A DNA stretch of 64,000 bases from Dictyostelium discoideum (Eukaryota). The stretch's first letter is position 1, and each line of letters opens with the position of its first letter. The stretch is taken from NCBI GenBank assembly GCA_000004695.1, contig CM000152.2:5824001-5888000 (forward strand), read 5' to 3'. Shown piece after piece: positions 35,666-47,999 of the stretch. Below the pieces are notes generated by a model. The model did no database searches, was not told the origin of the DNA, and worked only from the letters and a program-made list of their open reading frames with translations. Both the position numbers and the translations under genes were made by a program.

Positions 35666-35830
35666 AAAATAATAGTTTTTTTTGGAATTTGGACTCATTT
35701 GTTTTTGTTAATTAAAAACATTTAATGATTTTTTTTTAATTAAAAAAATAAAAAAAAAAAAAAATCTTTTAATTTTTTTTTACAATTGTAAAAATACCTT
35801 ATCTAATTTTAATGTTGTATAATAATTTAT

Positions 35831-37526
35831 TTATTTATGATCTCTTTCAATTACTTGACATGACCATTGTTTTGGTCTAATTGAATTAATTGTAAAAGCT
35901 TCTTCTGATATTGGTGTATTGTCAATTGGTTGGAATTCAAAAGACTGGAATAATCTAGAGAATATAATAAACAATTCATCGATAGCAAATGACATGAATG
36001 GACATGTTCTAATACCAATATCAAATGTCATATGAAGGATTTCAGGATTATCACCAATGTAACGATTTGGATTGAAAGTTAATGGGTCTTTGTGATATTG
36101 TGGATCAAAGTTGAATGAATGTGCATTTGGTATGATTAATGTACCAACTGGAATAGTATAACTTTCACCTTTGGCACTACATTCATGTTTTAAAACAATT
36201 GGATCATTAACAACACGTGAAGCAATAATAGGTTGAATTGGTCTTAATCTATGAATTTCTTTAATTGATGCATTTAACAATGGATACTTTTGTTTATCAA
36301 CTAAAACTGGTAATCTAATACCAACATCTAATAATTCTGTACGTATTCTATCTTGCATCTCTTTTCTATTTGTCATCATTAATGTAAACCAGTCCTGTAT
36401 TTATATAAACAACAAAATAATTAGTAACTATTGTTTGGGTAGCACTTTCACATTAATGTATAATTACCATTGTTCTAGCAGTTGATTCAGTACCACCTAT
36501 AAACATATCCATTAAGAAATGTGGCAAATGTTCATATGTAATTAATTTTGGTTCATCTTGATCTAATATACAATTTATCATATGATCTAATGCACATTTT
36601 GGATTATTTCTGTCGTGTTGTTTTAAATATTTCTCTAAAAATGGTTTAACCAATGCATACATTTCTTTAACTACACCATCAATATCTTTATACTGTTCGG
36701 TCAATCGATAATTTACAAATTAATAAATTATACATACTACACTATTAATAATAATAATAAATAAAATACATACACTTGTAAATATTTCAAATATTGGCAT
36801 TAAATCTGATGCTTTTTGACAACTTGCAATTATTTTTTCAGTACACACTAATAAAGAATCAATTAATGGATCAGTAAATTCTAAATCTGTACCAAATTGA
36901 AAATTGAAAATAATACTAATTGTAAGTCTTTTAAATTCAGGCTCCAATGTAACCTATACAAATAAATAAATTAATATGTGTGCAGTTGTAATTTATATAA
37001 TTATTATTGATTTGATGGTACATACGATATTATTATTTGATTTGATTAATTTTTTAATATGATTTTCAAATTTTAAATATTGAGTATGAAATATTTTATC
37101 CAATACTTGTTGACCCATTTTATTTTTTGAAAATGAAATTACAATGAATGATCTTAACTTTTTCCATTCATCAGGACTACATCCTAAAATACTTTTACCT
37201 TGAGCGTATCTTTTAATTGATGGTGTATGAAATCTTTCGAAAACACTATCACTTTGTTCTATTACAACTTGTTTAATTAATTTTGGTGAATTTAAAACAA
37301 TACAATCATGTTGACCAAATTTAATGAAATAAAAATCTTTATATTTGTCATAAAATTTATCAAAACTTTTATGAAATCTTTCTTTATCAAATGCATATAA
37401 TGCACCTAATAATGGTAAATTGAATGGACCTTGTACTTTTCGTAAATCATTTTTACCACCATTATTTAATAAATATTTATTTACAAAAATTACTGTTAAA
37501 ATTATTATTACTATAGTTAATATCAT
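35831..37526 (-). CDS. Cytochrome P450 monooxygenase, four exons: 37026..37526, 36774..36953, 36468..36692, 35831..36394. 489 aa.
   Basis: Exon 1 has an N-terminal membrane anchor MILTIVIIILTVIFV plus proline hinge LRKVQGPFNLPLLGALY. Donors are GTATGT (37025), GTATGT (36773) and GTAATT (36467). Acceptors are TATAG (36954), ACAG (36693) and ATACAG (36395); all junctions are phase 0. Exon 3 carries the I-helix FIGGTESTARTM. Exon 4 carries ExxR-like and heme-binding FDIGIRTCPF. Total coding length is 1470 nt. Confidence 0.8.
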
Positions 37527-37726
37527 TGTGTGTTATTATTAATTTATTGGTTTTTATGAATATGAAAAAAAAATAATAGTGGTCTGTGTGTGTTTAAATA
37601 TAAAAAAATTTCATTTTTAATTGAATAAAAAATAAAAAAAAAAATAAAAAAAAAAAATAAATAATTTTAAATAAATTTAATTTTTTAAATTATTATTATT
37701 ATTGAATTATATTTATTTATTTTGAA

Positions 37727-37765
37727 TGTTGTAGGGAATTTTCAATAAAATTTCACTACACAGCG
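37727..37765. repeat. Left arm of a perfect 39-bp inverted repeat (tgttgtagggaattttcaataaaatttcactacacagcg).
   Basis: The exact reverse complement recurs at 38982..39020. Neither flank extends the match. Confidence 0.8.
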
Positions 37766-38981
37766 TTCATCATCATCCATTGGCATATTAATAATATTAA
37801 CTGGTAATAGTAATGGCGAATCTAATTGTTGTTGTTGTGGTGATGTTGTTGTTTTTGTTGTTGTTGAAGAAGATGAAGAAGATGAAGAAGATGAAGATGA
37901 TCTTAATTGCAGTGGTTGTAGTTGATTTATTACATTCTTCAATTGGTTCCTCTGGAATTGCATGCTTCAGTTTCTTGTTTAGTTAATTCTTTACTTGGTT
38001 TAATTTCTTGTAAAATTTGACTAGCCGTTGTTACATTATGTTGATTTAAATCTTGTGAGGAAGATAAAGAATTCTCTGCATTAACTTTTAATTGTAAAAT
38101 ATCAAATGGTGATAATACTTCAGGTGCTTCATCAATCATTTTGGATGATTGTTACTATTATGTTGTTGTTGTTGTGATGATGATGATATTGATAATGATC
38201 AAGATGAAGCTGATTGATGATTTTTTCTTTCTTTACCAAGGAAATCAGTTGATCAATTCAAAGAAGAATTTAATTTTGGCATCATATTGCACCGACTGAT
38301 GGTTTGCGTTGAATAAAACTTGTTGATCTGGTGATGATGGTATACCCCTAATTGTTGGGGATTATCCAACTGATACACTTGTAGTAGTATTACCACCAAT
38401 ATTATTACTACTAGTATTTAATGGAGTTGGAATTGGTGTCGATGCACTACTTAATGATGGTGAAGATTGAGCTGATGATATCACATTATTATTATTATTA
38501 TTTATTTTTTATTATTGATAACAACTGGAGTAACACTTAGAATTGTTTTGAAAGAAACCTTCACTATCTAATTTTGCTGCTTTTGTTCTTTCATCTTTTG
38601 AAATTAATACCCAATTAGTATTTTAATTTTGGTAATTCATTAATAACAAATAATATAAACTCTTCACATTTCTTTTAAATTAAATTATTTTCAAATGATA
38701 AATATTTGAAGTTTTAGATTTCTTTAATGTTTGTTATTTGTTGTCCTTAAATTGAAAATATGAAAATAAAAAAAAAATGAAAAACAAAAACGAAAAAAAA
38801 AATGAGAAAAAAAAAAAAAAAAAAAAAAAAAACAATAAAAAAACTTAAATAGAACTAATAATCAAATAAAAGATAATTTAATAAACTTTATTTGTTTTTT
38901 TGAAAAAAAAAAAATTTAGGGTCAGTGATTTTTTTTTTTTCACTACGCTACTGTAGTGAAATTAAATAATAAAATTCACTG
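37766..38981 (-). pseudogene. Decayed coding sequence (S/T/N-rich, multiple frameshifts and stops) lying between the 39-bp inverted repeats.
   Basis: Minus-strand translation gives protein-like segments (…SAQSSPSLSSASTPIPTPLNTSSNN…, MIDEAPEVLSPFDILQLKVNAENSL…, MQFQRNQLKNVINQLQPLQLRSSSSS…). These sit in three different frames with internal stops. The last ORF terminates inside the left IR (…CVVKFY*). No consistent splice solution found. Confidence 0.3.
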
Positions 38982-39020
38982 CGCTGTGTAGTGAAATTTT
39001 ATTGAAAATTCCCTACAACA
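38982..39020. repeat. Right arm of the 39-bp inverted repeat. Preceded by a 22-bp direct duplication (cactacgctactgtagtgaaatt / cactgcgctgtgtagtgaaatt).
   Basis: Direct reading of the sequence at 38941..39020. Confidence 0.8.
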
Positions 39021-39090
39021 ATTACAAAGTCGTATTATAAATTATTACGTTTCAGAATTATTTTCAAATCAAGAAGAATCATCTCAAACA

Positions 39091-39633
39091 ATGATTGATA
39101 CAGTTGAACGATTTCAAACAAATCATCAAACAATACCATATTTTGAAGACGTTAGGCCATTAACGGAAGGTTCATTCAGTAAAGATGGTTGTTGGATGTT
39201 AAGTAAATCTCAATGTTTAACAGTAGATCAACAACCATACTATAATGATGTTGGTTTGGGATTGGATTGGATTGTTGATTTGTACACAAAGACCACATTA
39301 AAAATGATTTATACAAATCCAATTGAAAGATCAAAAACAAGCGAAGAATATTTATGGTTACAAACTGTTTCACCAACAATTATGACATTTGGATTAGACA
39401 TTGCCACATTCTATTTTTCCTATTATTTAGCAAATCAAGAATGGTCAACTCTAGTTTTAACTTCAATTTTATCAGTCTCTTGTGTATTATTACTATTAAT
39501 TTATGTTGCTTTATTTAGACCATATTTAAAGTTCCTTAGAGTTCAACATATTCATACATTGGCTTTATTAAGACTTGCTCCTGATGATATTAGGTACATG
39601 GAAATTAGTGATAAAATAATTGGTGAAGATTAA
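39091..39633 (+). CDS. Hypothetical 180-aa protein with C-terminal hydrophobic segments.
   Basis: ORF starts immediately downstream of the right IR arm. Normal composition. Two predicted TM-like stretches (IMTFGLDIATFYFSYYLA, LVLTSILSVSCVLLLLIYVALF). No family recognised. Confidence 0.35.
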   Translation: MIDTVERFQTNHQTIPYFEDVRPLTEGSFSKDGCWMLSKSQCLTVDQQPYYNDVGLGLDWIVDLYTKTTLKMIYTNPIERSKTSEEYLWLQTVSPTIMTFGLDIATFYFSYYLANQEWSTLVLTSILSVSCVLLLLIYVALFRPYLKFLRVQHIHTLALLRLAPDDIRYMEISDKIIGED

Positions 39634-41572
39634 AAAAAATACATAAAATAAATTATTTCTCAAATTGTAAAAAAAAAAGATTCACATTTTAAATTTGCAA
39701 CACAAATGAAATAGGTTGTAAATTTCACTGCCTTTTTTATTCTTTTGTTTATTCAACACTACTATTTTATTATTTAGTTTTTTTTAATTGTTTTTTTAAT
39801 ATCAAATTAATTTTTCATTCCTCAAAAAATATTAAATTTATAATTCCTTCAGGATCAATACAAATACCATTTGAAGATGGAAGATGAACCACTTTCTCCA
39901 TCACACATTCTCGATACGTTGGTGAATAATAGTAATTTTAAAAAAGATTTTAATAATGACACAGCATTAGTGATTTAGAATTTTTAGCAATTGATGGTAA
40001 AGATGAAATAAAAATAAATAAAGATACTAAAATTTTATAAAAGTTAACTTTTGGGTACAATGAAAAGAGTGAATTAAGAATTCTTTTTTTTTGATAATTC
40101 AACAGACATTTTTGCTGATGCATGAAATTGTGTGATTAATTGGTCAACTGATTCTCTTTCATATATGTTAATTGATGATTCTTGTGTTGGAAAATACATT
40201 TCGTCAATAATTTTAAATGGTGGTGAGCGAGGTGATATAATTTCAAAAATTATTCAAATTGTTGAAAACCATTCATCTTTTATAAATGATTTTTATTCAT
40301 CTGGCAAAGAAATTGATAGTAGTAATATGATAAACTGTGTTAAATTATTGGCATATCAATTTGGTTCAATTCAAGGTGGAATAGATTCCAAAATTGTTAT
40401 TCAAAAATATAGATACAAGAACTGGAACCAATTGGTATATTTTAAACCAACTGGTAATATTAAAATTTTAAATGTCAATTAAATCAATCAAAAGGTTTTC
40501 AATTGGGATGGTTTTACAAATAAAGATAGTCAAGGGTATTTTTTAATTGGATCATCATATCTTGTAAAATAATGATATTGACAAGATAAAGAAATTAAAA
40601 CAAATAGAGAAATTATAAAAAAAAGAATATAATATACGAAGAAGATACTCGAGATTATGAAGATATCATTGATCCAGAAAACATAATTCAAGATGAAAAG
40701 GATCAAGATTATGATTATGATTAAATTACTGAAGAATCTAATTTTGAAGAAAATCAAATTTAATAAATAAATAAAAAAAATTATGATATACAACAATGAT
40801 TTGGTTTTAAATATATTGTTATTATATTTTGGACTATTGTCACATATGTAATATTATCGATTATCTAAACCTCGATATAAATTTAATAAACTCCAAATGT
40901 AAAATATACAGATAAAAAATTGAATTTATAAACAGGTAATAAAATATGGGATAAACAGGAAATTATATTAAGATCAAGTTCATTTATATAAATATTTTAA
41001 AATATGGAAATCATGACATTCCACTACGAATATGTGAGCTAACAATGTTATGAATTTGGTGAACGATAATCCTCTCCCATCACCGCTGAAAACTATATTG
41101 TCATTACTAATATTGTTCATTATTACTATTATTTATGTTTTATTTTACCTAATTATTTTTTTTTTTTTTATTTTTATTTTTTTTTTATTTTTTAAATTTA
41201 TTATTACGCACGATATTTGTTTTGATCAACTGCTATGTCACCAAATGTAATAACCACTGTTAATCTATTAATTACAGAATTATGTTATTAAGGTCTAAAC
41301 TTACTAAATGAATTACACACTACAAAGATTATGTTTTATAAATATGATGAATGATCGACCACTTTATTTAATGTTATTTTATGTGTATTTATACTCTTAT
41401 GTTTTATGCTAGCTAATCATTACTCGTTGCAATAGAACCTTCTAGAAAGCATGTTGATTCATTAAAGATATTTATTGATTACTTGAAAACCTTACGAAAC
41501 ATCGTAACCCTAACTTAACTATGTACGAAACCATGTTTTTTTTTTTTTTTTTTTTTGAATGTACGAAACCAT

Positions 41573-41897
41573 TTTTTTTTTTTTTGAATTGGATAACGCA
41601 ATTATTATTTGCTTCTCCTTGAGATGCTAGATCTCATTTTATTTTTTTTTTTTTTTTACAGGGTCTTTTTGATTAAAACATCTTTTTTGTCCAAACTTTT
41701 TTCTAAATCTTTTTTTATTTTATCGTCTGGTTCGTGATTGATGTTTATGACGTATTTGAATTGTTTTTTTTTTAATTGAGTTTTATCCACAATTTCGCTT
41801 ATTTTTTGTAGGCATTTGTGTTGCTTAATATTTGTGGTGTTGTTTGTGATTTTCATTTTATTTTCTTTCTATCTTTTTTATTTTTCTGATTAACTTG

Positions 41898-41939
<42 letters not shown>

Positions 41940-43645
41940 TTATAGAAAGTACTGAGTGAATTATTGTATTTTTTGAGATGTTTAGGAAGTTCTATTGCGG
42001 GTGTTGATGATGATTTGTGACACCCCTTGTCCTGTTTTATCAATTGGTGCGTGGTGTGTTATTTTGTTTTTATATTGTTGATTTATTGAGTAAATTTTAT
42101 TTGTTTTTATATTTGTTTCAGTTAGAAGTGCTGCGTCCAGCTTGTTGTTGTCTAAAACGGTGTTTATTATGCTGGCAGATTGGATGGTATTGGATCCTTG
42201 GACGTTCCAAACACCTATTCTTATTGTGTTTTTCTTTATAGTTTTATTTGGGGTAGATTTTTATCTACCTTTTGAAGTTTCTGGTTTATTTTGTCTTCTA
42301 ACTGATCTTTACTTTGTTCATTGTGTTGTTGGTCTTGTGTGTTTGTGGGGTTTTTTGATTTATTGATTTGTTTTAGAATTTCCTTGTTGAAGTTGTCTAT
42401 ATCTTCATCCATTTTTGTTTTTATGCTTTTTTGTCCATATTCACCCAATTTTGGTTTGACTGGTGTTTTGTTGGTCTTGTTTGTTTTGTCTTGTTGTTTC
42501 TTTTTTGGTGTGTTTAACAATTTACTTGGTGAATCGATAATTTTCGATGGTGTACCATAGGTTGGGCTGAAACTCATGATATGTTTTATTGGAGAGGAGA
42601 AGAACCATTGATTTGAAGGGATTGAAAGTGGGAATTCTATTTTTCTTATTGCATCAGTGTTTGGGCTGGTGAAGTCGAAGATATCATTTGCCTCTCTAAG
42701 TTTTTCTTCCGTTGTTAGTCCCTTTGTTTCGCCGTGTTGTTTTATTGGTGTATTGTATGGAGATGGTGGTTCGATAGGTTTTTCTGATTTTGTTTTAATT
42801 TCTTGATTGTTTATCGATTGGGTATTGATCTCATTCTCTATTCTTGTTAGTTCATCTACGTTTTCTAGTGATGCTTCTATTACCTTTTGAGCTGTATCAT
42901 CTAGGGCCATAAATGTTTTATCATTAGATGAGGATGTGATTGGTGGGATAATGATTGTTCTTTTTCCTTGTTTTGGTATTTGTTCTGATGTAGATTGTGG
43001 TTGTTGTTCATCTGATTGTTTTTTATTTTTGTTTTCTTCTTGATTTTCTGGTAATGAGGTTTGATCTCTCCATCCTTTGTTGGAGTGTCCAATTAATGTT
43101 AGATTGTCTAGTTCAATGATAGTGTCAAATTCTTCTACGACTCTTTTCACTGTTTTGATAATTAGAGTTTCGCCTTTAATTTCTGATTTAATTAGTTTAC
43201 ATCCTTCATTTTCTATTACCCATTCTATTTCATTGTGGTATTTATACCAATCAAAATCTCTGCATCTATTTTTTGGTCTTATAGTGGTTATAAATTGTCC
43301 TTTTAATTCTGCATCAAACATATTTACAAAATAGATTACTGTACTAATACTGTCTGTGAGAATTTTGAATGTATTATTACTTTTGATTAAAACATCTTTT
43401 TTGTCCAAACTTTTTTCTAAATCTTTTTTTATTTTATCGTCTGGTTCGTGATTGATGTTTATGACGTATTTGAATTGTTTTTTTTTTAATTGAGTTTTAT
43501 CCACAATTTCGCTTATTTTTTGTAGGCATTTGTGTTGCTTAATATTTGTGGTGTTGTTTGTGATTTTCATTTTATTTTCTTTCTATCTTTTTTATTTTTC
43601 TTTAAAAAGTTAAAAATCTGGAAATTTTCTAATTAACTTGGTTCC

Positions 43646-43689
<44 letters not shown>

Positions 43690-43955
43690 TCTTTTTTATA
43701 TGAAAAATGAAATAATCAAAAAAAGAGATTGTTGTTGTTGTTTGTTTTTTTCGATCTGATTATTTTTTGCTTTTTTTTTGAAAATTTTGCTACGCAAAAT
43801 TCTCAAAACGAAACAAATAATAAATTACAATAAAGTAAAAAGATGGCTTTTTAAAATAGTTTATTTATTTATTTATTTGTTTTTTAAGTCTTTTTTATAT
43901 GAAAAATGAAATAATCAAAAAAAGAGATTGTTGTTGTTGTTTGTTTTTTTCGATC
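41573..43955 (-). mobile_element. TRE5-A (DRE) non-LTR retrotransposon, ORF2-deleted form (TRE5-A.2-like). Element 5' end lies 52 bp upstream of tRNA-Val. Flanked by 16-bp target-site duplication gaatgtacgaaaccat.
   Basis: Minus-strand order: two tandem A-module copies (43689..43758 and 43878..43950 are near-identical); B-module; intact ORF1 (43570..42236); about 280 nt ending in the pre-3'-UTR sequence (…cgcaatagaacttcctaaacatctcaaaaaatacaataattcactcagtactttctataaata) with ORF2 missing; oligo(A); a 3' B-module copy including the first 66 codons of ORF1 (41856..41659); then the C-module terminus (…agaccctgt(A)n taaaatgagatctagcatctcaaggagaagcaaataataattgcgttatccaattc) and the final oligo(A) at 41573..41584. 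TSD copies at 41557..41572 and 43957..43972. Module assignments follow published TRE5-A architecture as recalled. Confidence 0.8.
42236..43570 (-). CDS. TRE5-A ORF1 protein (444 aa).
   Basis: Intact ORF MKITNNTTNIKQHKCLQKISEIVDKTQLKKKQFKYVININHEPDDKIKK…. The same N-terminal 60-66 aa recur at 41656..41856 and 45082..45264 as part of the 3' B-module copies of the two elements. Confidence 0.8.
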   Translation of the reverse strand: MKITNNTTNIKQHKCLQKISEIVDKTQLKKKQFKYVININHEPDDKIKKDLEKSLDKKDVLIKSNNTFKILTDSISTVIYFVNMFDAELKGQFITTIRPKNRCRDFDWYKYHNEIEWVIENEGCKLIKSEIKGETLIIKTVKRVVEEFDTIIELDNLTLIGHSNKGWRDQTSLPENQEENKNKKQSDEQQPQSTSEQIPKQGKRTIIIPPITSSSNDKTFMALDDTAQKVIEASLENVDELTRIENEINTQSINNQEIKTKSEKPIEPPSPYNTPIKQHGETKGLTTEEKLREANDIFDFTSPNTDAIRKIEFPLSIPSNQWFFSSPIKHIMSFSPTYGTPSKIIDSPSKLLNTPKKKQQDKTNKTNKTPVKPKLGEYGQKSIKTKMDEDIDNFNKEILKQINKSKNPTNTQDQQHNEQSKDQLEDKINQKLQKVDKNLPQIKL

Positions 43956-44007
43956 TCGAATGTACGAAACCATGTACTATGATTCATCACAAAAAAAATA
44001 TCAATAT

Positions 44008-44081
44008 GTTCGGATGGTGTAGTCGGTTATCACGAATCCTTAACACGGATTAGGTCGTGGGTTCGATTCCCGCTCTGAATA
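44008..44081 (+). tRNA. tRNA-Val (anticodon AAC).
   Basis: Cloverleaf: acceptor GTTCGGA/TCTGAAT+A. A-box GGTGTAGTCGG. Anticodon stem AATCC/GGATT with loop TTAACAC (U33, AAC, A37). T-arm GTGGG-TTCGATT-CCCGC (B-box GGTTCGATTCC). Terminator TTCTTTTT immediately 3'. Confidence 0.85.
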
Positions 44082-44113
44082 CTTCTTTTTAAAGAACCGA
44101 TTATAGATCGCAT

Positions 44114-44123
44114 GTTCGATTCC
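44114..44123 (+). promoter_or_regulatory. External B-box (ex-B, GTTCGATTCC) 33 bp downstream of the tRNA-Val at 44008.
   Basis: Exact B-box copy within gatcgcatgttcgattccctatttt. Extra downstream B-boxes are a known Dictyostelium tRNA-gene feature. Confidence 0.6.
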
Positions 44124-44880
44124 CTATTTTGATTATGGTGTTAAAAAATACAAAAAAAAAAAAAAAGAAAAGAAAAAAAAATTATGTAATAATAAAATTT
44201 GCTTTTATAAAATTTTTAATTAATTTAAAATAAACAAATTAAAATATATACATTTAATTTTTTTTTTTTTTTATTTTTAATTTTGAAAATTTCATTTCAT
44301 TTTATTTTTCTACAAATAAAATTAAATTTTTATTTACAATTTATTTGTTACTGTAATCCTGAATAACAATAAATAGGGGAAAAAATAATTTTTTAATTTG
44401 AATAGTCACTATTTTATTTATTTTGAAAAAAAAACTTAAATTTTTGTAATTTTGATAGTCAATAAATTGAGTGAATTAGTATATTAATAAACAATATCGA
44501 ATATTAAAACATCAAAAGAAAATAAATAAATAAATATCATTATCGTTAAAAAATAAAATTGTGTACAAATAAACGAGTATTTCAAATAATATTATTAAGA
44601 GATAAATTTTATATAAGTTTATTTTTAAAGTGTTCAAAGGGTCACATATTGTATTGATATACAAAATATTATAAATATTCCATATAAGTTGGAGTACGAG
44701 GATCTTTACAAATGTAATAAAGTTTGTTTTTAAAATTGAGAATAATAAATAATTCCAAATGGAATAATTTTATAAATTATGATTATATTTAATTAATACA
44801 TGTTTAATTATTATCTTTATATATTAGATTATCTCTTAATATTGTGTATTACTCGAGTTGATTGAATAAACTTCTAAAAT

Positions 44881-45013
44881 AAGTGTCTTTTTTTTGAATT
44901 GGATAACGCAATTATTAGTTGCTTCTCCTTGAGATGCTAGATCTCATTTTATTTTTAATTTTTTTTTTTATTTTTTTTTTTTACAGGGTCTCTAAAAGAG
45001 GGGTTAGTTTACT

Positions 45014-45052
<39 letters not shown>

Positions 45053-45340
45053 CGAATTTTGAATTGTATTATAACTTTTGATTAAAACATCTTTTTTGTC
45101 CAAATTTTTTCTAAATCTTTATTTATTTTATCGTCTGGTTCGTGATTGATGTTTATGACGTATTTGAATTGTTTTTTTTTTAATTGAGTTTTATCCACAA
45201 TTTCGCTTATTTTTTGTAGGCATTTGTGTTGCTTAATATTTGTGGTGTTGTTTGTGATTTTCATTTTATTTTCTTTCTATTTTTTATATTTTTCTTTAAA
45301 AAGTTAAAAATCTGGAAATTTTCTGATTAACTTGGGTTCC

Positions 45341-45403
<63 letters not shown>

Positions 45404-46080
45404 TTATGGAGAGTACTGAGTGAATTATTGTATTTTTTGAGATGTTTGGGAAGTGCTATTGCGTGAAGAGGTGAGTTCCATTGTCTGCTAAATTTTAATA
45501 GCTTTAGCGAGATTAATGAGTCTAATTTATTTTGTTCTTCTGGCCGTTGCTTTGATTTGATTCTTAATGTTTTGTTTATAACCGCTTGTGTCCTGTCCCA
45601 TGGAGCTCTTTGTGTTTTAATTAGTTCACGTATGACTTGTTGTCTATGAATTACTATTTCTATTTCATCGTGGATGAGTTTGTTTCTTTTGTGCCAAATT
45701 TTTTCGAATATAATAGCTATTAAATTGGCTATTAGTGCAATTTGTAGATGGTTTAAAATCTTAACATTCCAGGTGTGAGTGGTGTGTCCACACTTGATTA
45801 AGGTGTAGTTGAAGATTTCTTGTGTGTTTTTGATGTGGGCTTTGCAGTTGAAGAATATATGTTCTGAAGTCTCATCTTCCCCACACTGTTTGGCATGTTG
45901 CATATTTTTGGTAGTGCTTTCAGTGTGTATCTCCATAATAGGTCTCTACCTTTCATGTTTATTATTTTTTTAATTTCTATAAATGGAAGGTGTTTGCTAT
46001 TGATTTTGGTCATTATTTCTTTTTGGCCAGGAGTTGGTATGAATTTGTTGTGTTCTGGAGATTGGGTTGTCATCCTCGTA
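44881..46080 (-). mobile_element. TRE5-A, 5'-truncated within ORF2: ORF2 3' end, 3' B-module copy, C-module and oligo(A). Flanked by 16-bp TSD taaaataagtgtcttt. Truncated 5' end lies 47 bp upstream of the second tRNA-Val.
   Basis: TSD copies at 44865..44880 and 46081..46096. Minus-strand order: ORF2 C-terminal region with frameshift (46080..45400, zinc-knuckle-like …CGEDETSEHIFFNCKAH…); oligo(A) 45345..45400; B-module tail plus ORF1 first 60 codons (45264..45082); oligo(A); C-module terminus identical to that in element 1 (…gcgttatccaattc); terminal (A)9. Confidence 0.75.
45400..46080 (-). pseudogene. Truncated, frameshifted 3' portion of TRE5-A ORF2 (reverse-transcriptase C-terminal cysteine-rich region).
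   Basis: Two overlapping ORFs in different frames (45798..46073 and 45400..45936). C-x-C…H…C knuckle (…LPKICNMP… and …KQCGEDETSEHIFFNCKAHIK…) typical of the LINE ORF2 C-terminus. No start codon; the element is 5'-truncated. Confidence 0.7.
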
Positions 46081-46127
46081 TAAAATAAGTGTCTTTATTT
46101 ATTTCTTTAAAAAAAAAATATCAATAT

Positions 46128-46201
46128 GTTCGGATGGTGTAGTCGGTTATCACGAATCCTTAACACGGATTAGGTCGTGGGTTCGATTCCCGCTCTGAAT
46201 A
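46128..46201 (+). tRNA. tRNA-Val (anticodon AAC), second copy identical to 44008..44081.
   Basis: Identical 74-nt sequence. Same 17-bp upstream flank (aaaaaaaatatcaatat). Terminator TTCTTTTT. Same downstream spacer plus ex-B box. Confidence 0.85.
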
Positions 46202-46233
46202 CTTCTTTTTAAAGAACCTAATATAGATCGCAT

Positions 46234-46243
46234 GTTCGATTCC
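46234..46243 (+). promoter_or_regulatory. External B-box (GTTCGATTCC) 33 bp downstream of the second tRNA-Val.
   Basis: Same context as at 44114. Confidence 0.6.
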
Positions 46244-46256
46244 CTATTTATTCTTA

Positions 46257-46289
46257 TTAGGTCGTGGGTTCGATTCCCGCTCTGAATAC
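46257..46289 (+). other. Orphan tRNA-Val 3' half (nt 42-74, ttaggtcgtgggttcgattcccgctctgaatac) followed by a T-run. A third B-box-like GGGTTCGATTCC lies at about 46320..46331.
   Basis: Exact match to the 3' 33 nt of the tRNA at 46128. No 5' half, so non-functional as a tRNA. It does supply another B-box. Confidence 0.6.
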
Positions 46290-46597
46290 TTATTTTTCAA
46301 ATTTAAATTGTTAAATAGTGGGTTCGATTCCGATCATGTAAAAAAAACCTCTCTTCGCATCAAAAAACCAAATTATTTTTTTTAGAAATTTATCTTTTTT
46401 TTTAATTTTTTTTAATTAAAAAAAAAAATAACCCTAAAAAAACCAAGAATAAAATAGATTAGAAAACAAAAAAAAACTTTTTAAAAAAAAAAAATTGTGA
46501 GAATAAGAAATAATTTAGAAAATAAAAACAAATATTAATAAATATCACCAAGAGTCTATTTTTATTTTTTTATTTTTCATTAAAAAAACAATAAACG

Positions 46598-47224
46598 ATG
46601 GAAATTAATAGTAACAAAATTGAAAAGTTATTTTTTGAAGTTTATAGAAATTTTTATTTAAAAGATATTATATTTAATCATTTAAGAATTTATAATGAAA
46701 ATACAAATAGAATTTTTAAAAATTGTGAAAAATTAAGACAATACTCACAAAAACACTATATTATCAAAGATGACTCTGAATCTATAGATTTATATGATAA
46801 CTTTTCAATATTATCTTTATTAGATATTGAATGTTTAACATTAAATAATAATTATTCTCACTCAATAGAATCATATGATTTACCAAAATCTTTAAAAAAA
46901 ATTAAATTTGGAAATAATTGGAATCATGGAATTAATTTAAAAAATACAAATATTGAAACAATAATTTTTGCTAATAATTATAATAAAAAATTAAAAGCAG
47001 GTGATTTACCAGATTCTTTAAAGGAAATTGTTTTTGGTTATTATTATTCACAGTGTTTAGAAATTGGAAGTATTTCATCACAGGTTGAAAAAATTACATT
47101 TGGTAATAATCCTTTAGTGGTCGGTATTATTCCAAGTAGTTGTAAGATTTTAAAATTGGGTGGTAAATATAATCATAAATTTGAAGTTAGTAAAAATGTC
47201 ATCCCTGAAGGAGTTGAATGGTAA
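46598..47224 (+). CDS. FNIP-repeat protein, 5' portion. Downstream FNIP-repeat coding continues about 47290..47757 in a different frame with no canonical splice joining them; this may be a disrupted gene.
   Basis: N-terminal …LFFEVYRNFYLKDIIFNHLRIYN… is typical of Dictyostelium FNIP proteins. Repeats: LPKSLKKIKFGNNWNHGINL / LPDSLKEIVFGYYYSQCLEIG. A GTAAAT donor sits at 47221, but every downstream AG gives a stop. The downstream frame FNYHYNKELLIGSIPPNVTYLSFGNSF…LPSSLTHLIFGDSN…IPDSVKYLYFGSKFTN… is clearly FNIP-like but has no start codon. Confidence 0.5.
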   Translation: MEINSNKIEKLFFEVYRNFYLKDIIFNHLRIYNENTNRIFKNCEKLRQYSQKHYIIKDDSESIDLYDNFSILSLLDIECLTLNNNYSHSIESYDLPKSLKKIKFGNNWNHGINLKNTNIETIIFANNYNKKLKAGDLPDSLKEIVFGYYYSQCLEIGSISSQVEKITFGNNPLVVGIIPSSCKILKLGGKYNHKFEVSKNVIPEGVEW

Positions 47225-47999
47225 ATCTAAAGTATTTAATTGTTGATTCCAATATGTACAAAAATAAATTACTTCAATCTTTTTTAATGATTTAATTTAA
47301 TTATCACTATAATAAAGAATTATTAATTGGATCAATACCACCAAATGTAACATATTTATCATTTGGTAATTCATTTACAAATAATAATTGTAAAATAAAA
47401 GCAGGTATTTTACCATCAAGTTTAACTCATTTAATATTTGGTGATTCAAATATTGAATTATTAAAAGGTTCTATACCAGATAGTGTCAAATATTTATATT
47501 TTGGTTCAAAATTTACAAATAATAATAAATCATTTAAAAATGTATTACCAAATAATCTTTTACATTTAGAATTTAAAAATATAAATTTTCAATTCCCAAT
47601 TTATGAAAAACCTCCAAATTCTATTTTAAAAAATAATTATATACCACTGATACCAAAAAGAAAAACTACTTTTTCAGAGATACTAGGAAATTCAATTTTA
47701 TTAATTTTTTATATCACTAGAGCTATATATGAATCTATTACTGGAATAACTGATTAAATTAAATAATTTTAGAAAAAATAAAATAAAAAATAAAAGAGAT
47801 ATTAAATATTAAAAAAATAAAATAAAAAAATAAAATAAAAAAAAAAATATTAAAAAATCTATTAATTCAATAATATAATATTTAATTTAATATAATTTAT
47901 ATATTTTTTTATATTTTATTTTTTTAAAATATATTAAAAATTAAATTAAAAAAAATAAAATAAAAAAATAAAAGAGATATTAAATATTAAATAAAATAA

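What the first reader, a model, noticed from the sequence alone, without database searches (positions are those of the whole stretch)
46202..46340. Extra tRNA-derived B-box copies downstream of the second tRNA-Val: ex-B box, orphan tRNA 3' half and a third B-box
Downstream of tRNA-Val at 46128 there is the standard ex-B box (46234). After it comes an exact copy of tRNA nt 42-74 with its own T-run (46257..46294), and then another GGGTTCGATTCC (about 46320). The first tRNA copy at 44008 has only the ex-B box. A stack of three TFIIIC-binding B-boxes could be a hotspot for TRE3-type downstream-targeting elements, or a remnant of a tandem tRNA array.
Basis: seen in the sequence. Interest (0 to 1): 0.5.

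Follow-up and report, generated by a model that had tools for sequence, protein, structure and literature searches.

The report
Displaced tRNA-Val 3′ end after paralog-templated insertion
Behind one Dictyostelium discoideum tRNA-Val gene, an 87-bp patch copied from the neighbouring twin gene has pushed the gene's own 3′ half and its own downstream TFIIIC-type box out of place; this is a lineage-specific repair scar, and no retrotransposon has landed downstream of it.

Summary
Downstream of tRNA-Val(AAC) at 46128-46201 lie an ex-B box (46233-46243), an exact copy of tRNA nt 42-74 (46256-46288) and a third perfect B box (46320-46331). A second D. discoideum assembly and five short-read assemblies carry the same sequence.

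The labels need reversing. In three related assemblies (ACTFIR, ACTFIW, ACTFIY) the orthologous gene is intact. It is followed directly by the sequence that in AX4 follows the orphan, including the "third" box. So the orphan plus third box are the native 3′ end and native ex-B of this locus.

The new material is 87 bp: tRNA nt 42-74, then 48 nt that are 46/48 identical to the flank of the twin gene 2.1 kb upstream (including its ex-B), then a 6-nt filler (ATTCTT).

The best explanation is a break in the gene repaired using the twin as template. Synthesis overshot into the twin's unique flank, and the end was then joined non-homologously.

The orphan has no A box and is not a gene. No TRE3, Skipper-2 or DGLT-A element lies downstream in any of the five assemblies. 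Both genes carry TRE5-A elements upstream with intact 16-nt target-site duplications.

Verdict: an ordinary kind of event that is unusually well resolved here. Interest is low to moderate.

The parts
44008..44081 (+). tRNA-Val(AAC) gene, locus 1 (proposed donor)
   Evidence: ARAGORN; Rfam tRNA 57.9 bits; identical to all 9 other Val-AAC genes examined
44082..44129 (+). Type-1 trailer of locus 1: T5 terminator plus ex-B box (TGTTCGATTCC at 44113-44123)
   Evidence: Orthologous to the locus-1 flank of ACTFIR/ACTFIW: trailer 65-70% identical (null mean 48%, max 64%), and homology continues to 44217 and then 44431-44843
46128..46201 (+). Full-length tRNA-Val(AAC) gene, locus 2, with A box TGGTGTAGTCG at 46135 and B box at 46180-46190
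46202..46249 (+). Copied type-1 trailer (T5 terminator plus ex-B at 46233-46243). This is the novel, locus-1-derived part of the 87-bp insertion
   Evidence: 46/48 identical to 44082-44129. The pre-ex-B trailer is 94% identical to locus 1 but only 57-66% to type-2 flanks. Absent from locus 2 of ACTFIR, ACTFIW and ACTFIY
46250..46255 (+). 6-nt filler ATTCTT at the single novel junction (CCCTATTT|ATTCTT|ATTAGG)
   Evidence: Not present in the donor, which continues TGATTATGG, nor in the tRNA
46256..46288 (+). Orphan tRNA 3' half (nt 42-74). It has an internal-type B box with GTC signature (46267-46277) and no A box
   Evidence: Exact identity. It is the start of the colinear syntenic alignment to sister loci (L009 9663 matches window 46256; L011 13419-13339 matches 46256-46335 at 91%). 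No A-box motif lies 32-57 bp upstream. Not called as a tRNA by ARAGORN or Rfam
46289..46319 (+). Native type-2 trailer of locus 2 (CTTATTTTT terminator-like run plus spacer)
   Evidence: 76% identical to the locus-2 trailers of ACTFIR and ACTFIW; null mean 48%, max 64%
46320..46331 (+). The 'third B box', which is the native ex-B box of locus 2 (GGGTTCGATTCC, followed by GATC)
   Evidence: Orthologous to the only ex-B at locus 2 in ACTFIR (…CATGGGTTCGATTCCGATC…), ACTFIW (…CATGGGTTCaATTCCGATC…) and ACTFIY (…TGTGGGTTCGATTCCTGATC…). It lies 54 bp from the orphan's B box, against 52-55 bp in all other genes
44891..46080 (-). 5'-truncated TRE5-A element (ORF2 C-terminus, B-module, C-module, poly(A)), 47 bp upstream of tRNA 2, head-to-head
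   Evidence: 16-nt TSD TAAAATAAGTGTCTTT at 44875-44890 and 46081-46096. Modules are homologous to those of element 1. ORF2 Cys/His C-terminus
41573..43957 (-). TRE5-A.2-like element (A-A-B-ORF1-[ORF2 deleted]-B-C-poly(A)), 50 bp upstream of tRNA 1, head-to-head
   Evidence: 16-nt TSD GAATGTACGAAACCAT at 41557-41572 and 43958-43973. 199-bp A-module repeat. ORF1 is DDB_G0282507. The structure matches the TRE5-A description in PMC3159450 and the TRE5-A.2 description in PMC5633606
46598..47224 (+). First exon/ORF of FNIP-repeat gene DDB_G0282511, used as the synteny anchor
   Evidence: Pfam FNIP; 100% identical to the AX4 protein

Best explanation
The stack of B boxes is the scar of one recombinational repair event in the D. 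discoideum (AX4/ACTFIT) lineage.

Ancestrally each of the two neighbouring tRNA-Val(AAC) genes had its own trailer and its own single ex-B box: type 1 at locus 1 and type 2 at locus 2.

At locus 2 an 87-bp segment was added. It consists of tRNA nt 42-74, the first 48 nt of the locus-1 flank (terminator plus type-1 ex-B), and a 6-nt filler. This displaced the gene's native 3' half, trailer and ex-B 87 bp downstream.

The most likely mechanism is as follows. A break or collapsed fork inside or next to tRNA 2 was repaired by strand invasion into the identical twin gene 2.1 kb upstream. DNA synthesis ran through the tRNA end and 48 nt into the donor's non-homologous flank. The extended end was then joined to the other broken end at nt 42 by end joining, with filler ATTCTT, instead of annealing in register.

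Shown: the orthology of each piece, the derived state, a single novel junction, and an intact gene. Inferred: the break, the repair pathway, and locus 1 rather than another type-1 paralog as donor.

Functionally, the full gene keeps its A box, B box, T5 terminator and an ex-B at the canonical +33. The orphan is a solo internal-type B box, like an ETC site, and is not a transcription unit. The native ex-B now sits at +119.
For: 1. Synteny. The sister alignment L009 9663-11251 to window 46256-47838 begins at tRNA nt 42 in the sister and at the first base of the orphan in AX4. ACTFIR 13419-13339 matches 46256-46335 at 91%, and the alignment then continues into the FNIP gene.
2. Locus 2 in ACTFIR, ACTFIW and ACTFIY is an intact tRNA with one ex-B of the 'third box' type and no orphan.
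3. The AX4 locus-2 proximal flank is 46/48 identical to the AX4 locus-1 flank. The type-1 flank is orthologous at locus 1 in ACTFIR/ACTFIW, with homology continuing beyond it.
4. In the trailer identity matrix, AX4_1 vs AX4_2 is 94% and the orphan vs FIR_2/FIW_2 is 76%. Cross-type values are 54-70% and the shuffle null has mean 48%, max 64%.
5. Gene distances give (ACTFIY,(AX4=ACTFIT, ACTFIR/ACTFIW)), and the insertion occurs only on the AX4/ACTFIT branch.
6. There is only one novel junction, and it carries a 6-nt filler.
7. Both AX4 genes share the derived 5' box TATCAATAT, against TATCGATT(A) in all six outgroup genes. This shows the two loci exchange sequence.
8. No A box serves the orphan, and ARAGORN and Rfam do not call it a tRNA.
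Against: The repair pathway itself leaves no unique signature, and a two-step route gives the same end product. Other Val-AAC genes elsewhere in the AX4 genome could not be searched, so another paralog with a type-1 flank could have been the donor. The copied flank differs from locus 1 at 2 of 48 positions, so the event is not very recent or the donor was slightly different. Flank relationships in the outgroup ACTFIY are shuffled: its locus-1 trailer is type 2 and its locus-2 upstream flank resembles ACTFIW locus 1. The history of the gene pair is therefore more complex than simple one-to-one orthology. TFIIIC binding to any of the boxes is inferred from sequence only.
Confidence: 0.75

Rival explanations
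1. Two-step route. Unequal homologous crossover between the two identical tRNA genes first made a triplet, whose middle gene had the locus-2 upstream flank and the locus-1 downstream flank. A ~2.1-kb non-homologous deletion then ran from +48 of the middle gene's flank to nt 41 of the third gene and left the orphan.
For: It yields exactly the observed structure. [quoted passage not shown] Flank shuffling among the paralogs in ACTFIY and ACTFIW suggests crossovers at the tRNA genes do occur.
Against: It needs two independent events, the second of which must end precisely inside the third gene. No triplet state is seen in any of the five assemblies.
Confidence: 0.17
2. The stack of three downstream B boxes is a selected functional module, either a TFIIIC landing pad or a TRE3-type integration hotspot, rather than a neutral scar.
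For: All four boxes match GTTCRAnYC perfectly. TRE3 can key on the internal B or ex-B box and inserts 40-150 bp downstream (PMC5911963). The ex-B core is conserved across lineages while the flanks diverge.
Against: No TRE3, Skipper-2 or other element lies downstream of either gene in any of the five assemblies. The arrangement is confined to one young branch, and sister lineages function with one ex-B. ACTFIW even carries a core mutation in its only locus-2 ex-B. Only 258 bp separate the third box from the FNIP gene start.
Confidence: 0.04
3. Simple local tandem duplication of an 87-bp unit (tRNA 3' half plus trailer plus ex-B) by replication slippage, followed by divergence of the copies.
For: Period of 86-87 bp. 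The B-to-exB spacing repeats (53 and 54 bp).
Against: The two units' trailers belong to different orthology classes, one 94% identical to locus 1 and the other 76% identical to sister-lineage locus 2. They are only 59% identical to each other, which is within the shuffle null (mean 48%, max 64%), while the adjoining tRNA parts are 100% identical.
Confidence: 0.02
4. The orphan is an RNA-mediated retro-copy of the 3' part of a pre-tRNA-Val transcript, 5'-truncated and ending at the Pol III terminator.
For: Identity to the gene ends near the T-run. Active non-LTR elements are adjacent.
Against: The orphan is colinear with its native downstream flank in three outgroups. The segment that is actually new includes 48 nt beyond the terminator, which a Pol III transcript would not contain. 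There is no target-site duplication around it.
Confidence: 0.01
5. Assembly artefact in a repeat-rich, AT-rich region.
For: Short-read contigs break inside the repeated tRNA sequence.
Against: Two independent chromosome-scale assemblies are identical across both junctions. Five short-read contigs confirm the orphan-to-third-box junction.
Confidence: 0.01

Closest known systems
Dictyostelium external B box (ex-B) downstream of tRNA genes
   Same: A B-box consensus GTTCRAnYC lies a few tens of bp behind the gene and lacks the GTC signature of internal boxes. Ex-B boxes are reported about 41 bp downstream of 66% of tRNA genes (PMC3159450). Both 46233-46243 and 46320-46331 fit, and each is orthologous to a single ex-B in related lineages.
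   Different: Two ex-B boxes of different ancestry plus an internal-type box are stacked at one gene. The native ex-B has been moved from +33 to +119.
Ectopic (interlocus) gene conversion / synthesis-dependent repair with non-homologous resolution (templated insertion)
   Same: Donor sequence from a nearby paralog is copied past the end of homology. There is a single novel junction with a short filler, and the recipient sequence is duplicated at the join.
   Different: The pathway is inferred from the product only. Here the copied segment happens to carry a complete Pol III terminator and an ex-B, so the gene stays fully equipped.
Extra-TFIIIC (ETC) sites: solo B boxes bound by TFIIIC without TFIIIB or Pol III
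   Same: The orphan carries a perfect internal-type B box but no A box at 32-57 bp. In D. discoideum, solo B boxes are poor TRE5-A targets (PMC5391098).
   Different: It sits 87 bp behind an active-looking tRNA gene rather than alone. Occupancy has not been tested.
tRNA gene pairs and triplets with identical anticodons in D. discoideum
   Same: Two identical Val-AAC genes lie 2.1 kb apart in direct orientation (PMC8163159).
   Different: The orphan is not a decayed third gene. It is the native 3' half of the second gene.

Membership tests
Dictyostelium ex-B box | B-box core GTTCRAnYC on the tRNA strand, downstream of the gene | tested here: met
   46234 and 46322 both read GTTCGATTC
Dictyostelium ex-B box | Lacks the internal-type GTC signature 5-7 bp upstream of the core (PMC3159450) | tested here: met
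   46234 (ATC GCAT) and 46322 (ATA GTGG) lack it. The orphan box at 46268 has it, so it is internal-type and not an ex-B
Dictyostelium ex-B box | Located a few tens of bp (about 41 bp) behind the tRNA coding end | tested here: met
   46234 is 33 bp behind the gene. 46322 is 34 bp behind the orphan's end (121 bp behind the full gene) and is orthologous to boxes 32-35 bp behind intact genes in three outgroups
Dictyostelium ex-B box | Binds TFIIIC | not testable with these tools
   Needs ChIP or footprinting
Functional tRNA gene (tested for the orphan) | Cloverleaf-forming full coding sequence | tested here: not met
   Only nt 42-74 are present. ARAGORN and Rfam call no tRNA there. The only hit is a 14.9-bit T-arm fragment, below the gathering score
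Functional tRNA gene (tested for the orphan) | A box 32-57 bp upstream of the B box | tested here: not met
   No TRRYNNARYNG, TRRYNNARNNG or TNNNNNANNNG motif in that interval
TRE3 / Skipper-2 insertion downstream of a tRNA gene | Retroelement sequence 40-150 bp (TRE3) or 8-23 bp (Skipper-2) downstream | tested here: not met
   46340-47820 aligns colinearly with ACTFIR (88.7%) and ACTFIY (81%) with no insertion. No RT-like ORF lies downstream of either gene
TRE5-A (upstream elements) | 44-54 bp upstream of the tRNA, opposite orientation, A/B/C modular UTRs, ORF1 of about 51 kDa, target-site duplication | tested here: met
   Distances are 50 and 47 bp, on the minus strand. 199-bp A-module repeat; B and C modules duplicated; 444-aa ORF1; 16-nt TSDs. 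The family name rests on the published structure, not on a named database hit
Remnant of a tandem tRNA array / triplet | An additional gene copy once occupied the orphan's position | tested here: not met
   Three outgroup assemblies have exactly two genes. The orphan is colinear with the second gene's own flank. A transient triplet cannot be excluded

The most novel reading that the evidence does not exclude
Ex-B boxes of Dictyostelium tRNA genes are born and renewed by partial copying of the tRNA's own 3' end into its downstream flank, after which everything except the TFIIIC-binding core decays. The AX4 orphan would be a fresh example.

ACTFIY locus 1 offers an independent one. Its 'ex-B' is a near copy of tRNA nt 47-74 plus the first two trailer bases (about 30 nt, 2 mismatches). 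All Val-AAC ex-B boxes examined also keep tRNA-specific T-stem bases (TCG / TGG) outside the generic B-box core, and they share the gene's own 'T' at the variable position (GTTCGAtTCC).
Probability: 0.25. Interest if true: 0.55.

Novelty: new member of a known kind. Interest (0 to 1): 0.3.

Why it matters
The case shows at base-pair resolution how identical, closely spaced tRNA genes in a compact genome exchange sequence, and how such an exchange can create extra solo TFIIIC-type sites.

It also provides a natural allele series for asking what ex-B boxes do and whether TRE3 or TFIIIC respond to box number and spacing. D. discoideum has four boxes at this locus, close relatives have two, and one relative has a mutated ex-B core.

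It cautions against treating the box nearest the gene as the ancestral one. The possible link between tRNA 3'-end copies and the origin of ex-B boxes would address an unexplained feature found at about two thirds of D. discoideum tRNA genes.

Tried and rejected
- A self-BLAST without masking was swamped by low-complexity hits and was redone with dust masking.
- Exact-pattern scans for the tRNA-Val 3' half found nothing in JGI metagenome contigs or GTDB prokaryotic genomes. Other Val-AAC loci of the AX4 genome therefore could not be sampled.
- AX4 reference proteins (P0001, P0002, P0004, P0007) are not indexed for contig look-up. The plan to sample many tRNA loci through TRE5-A ORF1 copies failed.
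- The one TRE5-like ORF1 locus obtained from another species (L013) had no clean tRNA gene.
- The primary ex-B papers and the genome paper (PMC1636787, PMC1352341, PMC311061) are not held. Secondary statements were used instead.
- An early idea that the copied cassette began 25 bp upstream, with a 31-bp deletion relative to ACTFIY, was dropped. ACTFIR showed that the proximal upstream flank of AX4 locus 2 is native, and ACTFIY's upstream flanks are shuffled.
- Microhomology-only joining (GATTA shared by the donor flank and tRNA nt 40-44) does not reproduce the observed junction, which carries ATTCTT instead.

Full report
**Source and context.** The window is 21% G+C. Its ORFs are 100% identical to D. 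discoideum AX4 proteins DDB_G0282507 and DDB_G0282511, which sit on a 6.36-Mb record. ARAGORN and Rfam find two tRNA-Val(AAC) genes on the + strand, at 44008-44081 and 46128-46201.

**Observation.** GGTTCGATTCC with at most 1 mismatch occurs 8 times in the window against 0.18 expected. Six of these are at the two tRNA loci. Behind gene 2 lie, in order:
- a T5 terminator;
- an ex-B (TGTTCGATTCC, 46233-46243);
- an exact copy of linear tRNA nt 42-74 (46256-46288), followed by CTT, A, T5;
- a perfect GGGTTCGATTCC at 46320-46331.

Gene 1 has one ex-B only. The block from 25 bp upstream through the tRNA to +48 is 96.6% identical between the two loci. The orphan's trailer does not align with the trailer of the gene in front of it beyond the B-box core. 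A second D. discoideum assembly (L010, GCA_054883475.1) is identical over the entire feature. Five Logan short-read contigs begin in the orphan and run through the third box. The sequence is therefore real.

**Comparative evidence.** Using the neighbouring FNIP genes as anchors, I retrieved the syntenic locus from three further assemblies: ACTFIY ('D. cf. discoideum', L009), ACTFIR (L011) and ACTFIW (L012). Each has exactly two Val-AAC genes, and all ten genes are identical in sequence. Nucleotide identity of a shared 764-aa gene gives AX4 = ACTFIT (100%), ACTFIR ~ ACTFIW (98.6%), AX4-ACTFIR 96.8%, AX4-ACTFIY 95.9% and ACTFIY-ACTFIR 95.1%. ACTFIY is therefore the outgroup. None of the three has an orphan.

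Their locus 2, the gene next to the FNIP gene, is an intact tRNA followed directly by a type-2 trailer and one ex-B. In ACTFIR this reads CTCTTTTTTAAAATTTAAATTGTAAAAATCATGGGTTCGATTCCGATC. That matches AX4's orphan trailer and third box, CTTATTTTTCAAATTTAAATTGTTAAATAGTGGGTTCGATTCCGATC. BLAST puts the colinear alignment start exactly at the orphan's first base: L009 9663 matches window 46256, and 9663 is nt 42 of the sister's intact gene. ACTFIR 13419-13339 matches 46256-46335 at 91%.

Their locus 1 (ACTFIR and ACTFIW) carries the type-1 flank …AGATCGCATGTTCGACTCCCTATTTTGAT…, orthologous to AX4 44082 onward. Homology continues into AX4 44217 and 44431-44843.

A trailer-only identity matrix (+1..+33, excluding the B-box core) separates the two types:
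- AX4_1 vs AX4_2: 94%;
- orphan vs FIR_2 and FIW_2: 76%;
- AX4_1 and AX4_2 vs FIR_1 and FIW_1: 65-70%;
- cross-type comparisons: 54-70%;
- shuffle null: mean 48, sd 6, max 64.

**What it is.** AX4 locus 2 therefore reads as native tRNA, then an 87-bp insertion, then native sequence:
- …CACGG [ATTAGG…GAATA | CTTCTTTTTAAAGAACCTAATATAGATCGCATGTTCGATTCCCTATTT | ATTCTT] ATTAGG…GAATA CTTATTTTT…GGGTTCGATTCCGATC…
- The bracketed 87 bp are new: tRNA nt 42-74, 48 nt of the locus-1 flank (46/48 identical), and a 6-nt filler.

Because the 33-nt repeat is exact, the insertion point can be drawn anywhere within it. There is only one truly novel junction, CCCTATTT|ATTCTT|ATTAGG at 46249-46256. The 'third' box is the native ex-B, and the 'orphan' is the native 3' half.

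**Mechanism (inferred).** A lesion in or beside tRNA 2 was repaired from the identical twin gene. Synthesis overshot 48 nt into the donor's unique flank, and the end was captured by end joining with a filler.

Independent signs that the two AX4 loci exchange sequence:
- Both share the derived 5' box TATCAATAT, where all six outgroup genes have TATCGATT(A).
- Flanks are shuffled among paralogs in ACTFIY and ACTFIW.

It is established knowledge from yeast, not tested here, that tRNA genes are replication-fork pause sites and recombination-prone.

A two-step alternative gives the same product and cannot be excluded: unequal crossover to a triplet, then a 2.1-kb deletion. Triplets are reported in this genome (PMC8163159). 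Simple slippage duplication, an RNA-mediated copy and an assembly artefact are each contradicted by the flank orthology and the independent assemblies.

**Function.** The full gene retains its A box (46135), B box, T5 terminator and an ex-B at +33. The orphan's B box is of the internal type, with the GTC signature (criterion from PMC3159450). No A-box-like motif lies 32-57 bp upstream, even with the most permissive pattern (distance range from PMC5391098). Neither ARAGORN nor Rfam sees a tRNA there. By sequence it is a solo TFIIIC-type site, and binding is untested.

**Retroelements.** Nothing is inserted downstream of either gene. AX4 46340-47820 is colinear with ACTFIR (88.7%) and with ACTFIY. 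According to the literature:
- TRE3 inserts 40-150 bp downstream, keyed on the B or ex-B box;
- Skipper-2 inserts 8-23 bp downstream;
- DGLT-A inserts 13-33 bp upstream (PMC5911963; PMC5006619).

The hotspot idea is therefore plausible in principle but unsupported here, and DGLT-A would not be expected downstream.

Upstream, both genes carry TRE5-A elements head-to-head:
- A TRE5-A.2-like copy at 41573-43957 has the structure A-A-B-ORF1-B-C and TSD GAATGTACGAAACCAT, 50 bp from tRNA 1.
- A 5'-truncated copy at 44891-46080 has TSD TAAAATAAGTGTCTTT, 47 bp from tRNA 2 (structure).

**Comparison and novelty.** Ex-B boxes, tRNA gene pairs, TRE5-A targeting and paralog-templated repair scars are all known. 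This is a new, well-resolved instance of a known kind.

The more novel reading is that ex-B boxes arise from partial copies of the tRNA 3' end. It is supported only anecdotally:
- the ACTFIY locus-1 ex-B is a near copy of tRNA nt 47-74 plus the first two trailer bases (about 30 nt, 2 mismatches);
- tRNA-specific bases flank the ex-B cores.

It could not be tested genome-wide with the available tools.

**Verdict.** The finding is a lineage-specific 87-bp paralog-templated insertion. Interest 0.3.

Noticed in passing
L009 7285-7314 (ACTFIY locus 1): The ex-B position is occupied by TCGTGGGTTCGATTCCCaCTCTGAAaACT, a near copy (2 mismatches) of tRNA nt 47-74 plus the first two trailer bases. This is a second, independent tRNA-3'-end copy downstream of a Val-AAC gene. 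Other lineages have GATCGCATGTTCGAYTCCCTATTTT at that position.
   Followed up: partly
L012 ~15815-15870 vs L009 ~9545-9605; L009 7257-7289: Flank shuffling between paralogs. The ACTFIW locus-1 upstream flank is 71% identical to the ACTFIY locus-2 upstream flank (null max 62%). The ACTFIY locus-1 trailer is type 2. This suggests crossovers or conversions with the tRNA genes as exchange points.
   Followed up: partly
window 43999-44007 and 46119-46127: Both AX4 genes share the derived 5' flank TATCAATAT, while all six genes in the three other lineages have TATCGATT(A). This is concerted evolution of the 5' consensus box.
   Followed up: partly
L012 ~13357-13368 (minus strand): The only ex-B of ACTFIW locus 2 has a core mutation (GGGTTCaATTCC). 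An ex-B can therefore decay in a natural lineage.
   Followed up: no
window 41521-41586: At the 3' end of the TRE5-A.2-like element the target-site sequence occurs twice, separated by a T21 run (ATGTACGAAACCATG-T21-GAATGTACGAAACCAT-T14-C-module). It looks like an earlier insertion at the same site, truncated to its poly(A) only.
   Followed up: no
window ~35800-41500: A block containing a cytochrome P450 gene and other ORFs lies between DUF4419 and tRNA 1 in AX4/ACTFIT. It is absent from that interval in ACTFIY (L009) and ACTFIW (L012).
   Followed up: no
L011 17084-21683: ACTFIR has an LTR-retrotransposon gag-pol ORF (18122-21683) just upstream of its locus-1 tRNA. RVT_1 ORFs (13654-15284) sit head-to-head about 50-200 bp upstream of its locus-2 tRNA. 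These are lineage-specific retroelement insertions at the same tRNA pair.
   Followed up: no
L011 13160-13339: A ~180-bp (ATAATA/AATAAT)n microsatellite is inserted directly after the locus-2 ex-B in ACTFIR and ACTFIW. It is absent in AX4.
   Followed up: no
window 44431-44557 vs L011 16511-16636: A 126-bp segment downstream of tRNA 1 is inverted between AX4 and ACTFIR (80% identity on the opposite strand).
   Followed up: no
window 54550-55689: A 228-bp tandem repeat (91-93% identity between units) corresponds to a polyubiquitin gene.
   Followed up: no
L013 9680-9870: Upstream of a TRE5-like ORF1 in ACTFIZ there is only a solo B-box-like GGTTCGAATCT and a tRNA-like stretch on the other strand. 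ARAGORN and Rfam call no tRNA, so this may be a degenerate target gene.
   Followed up: partly
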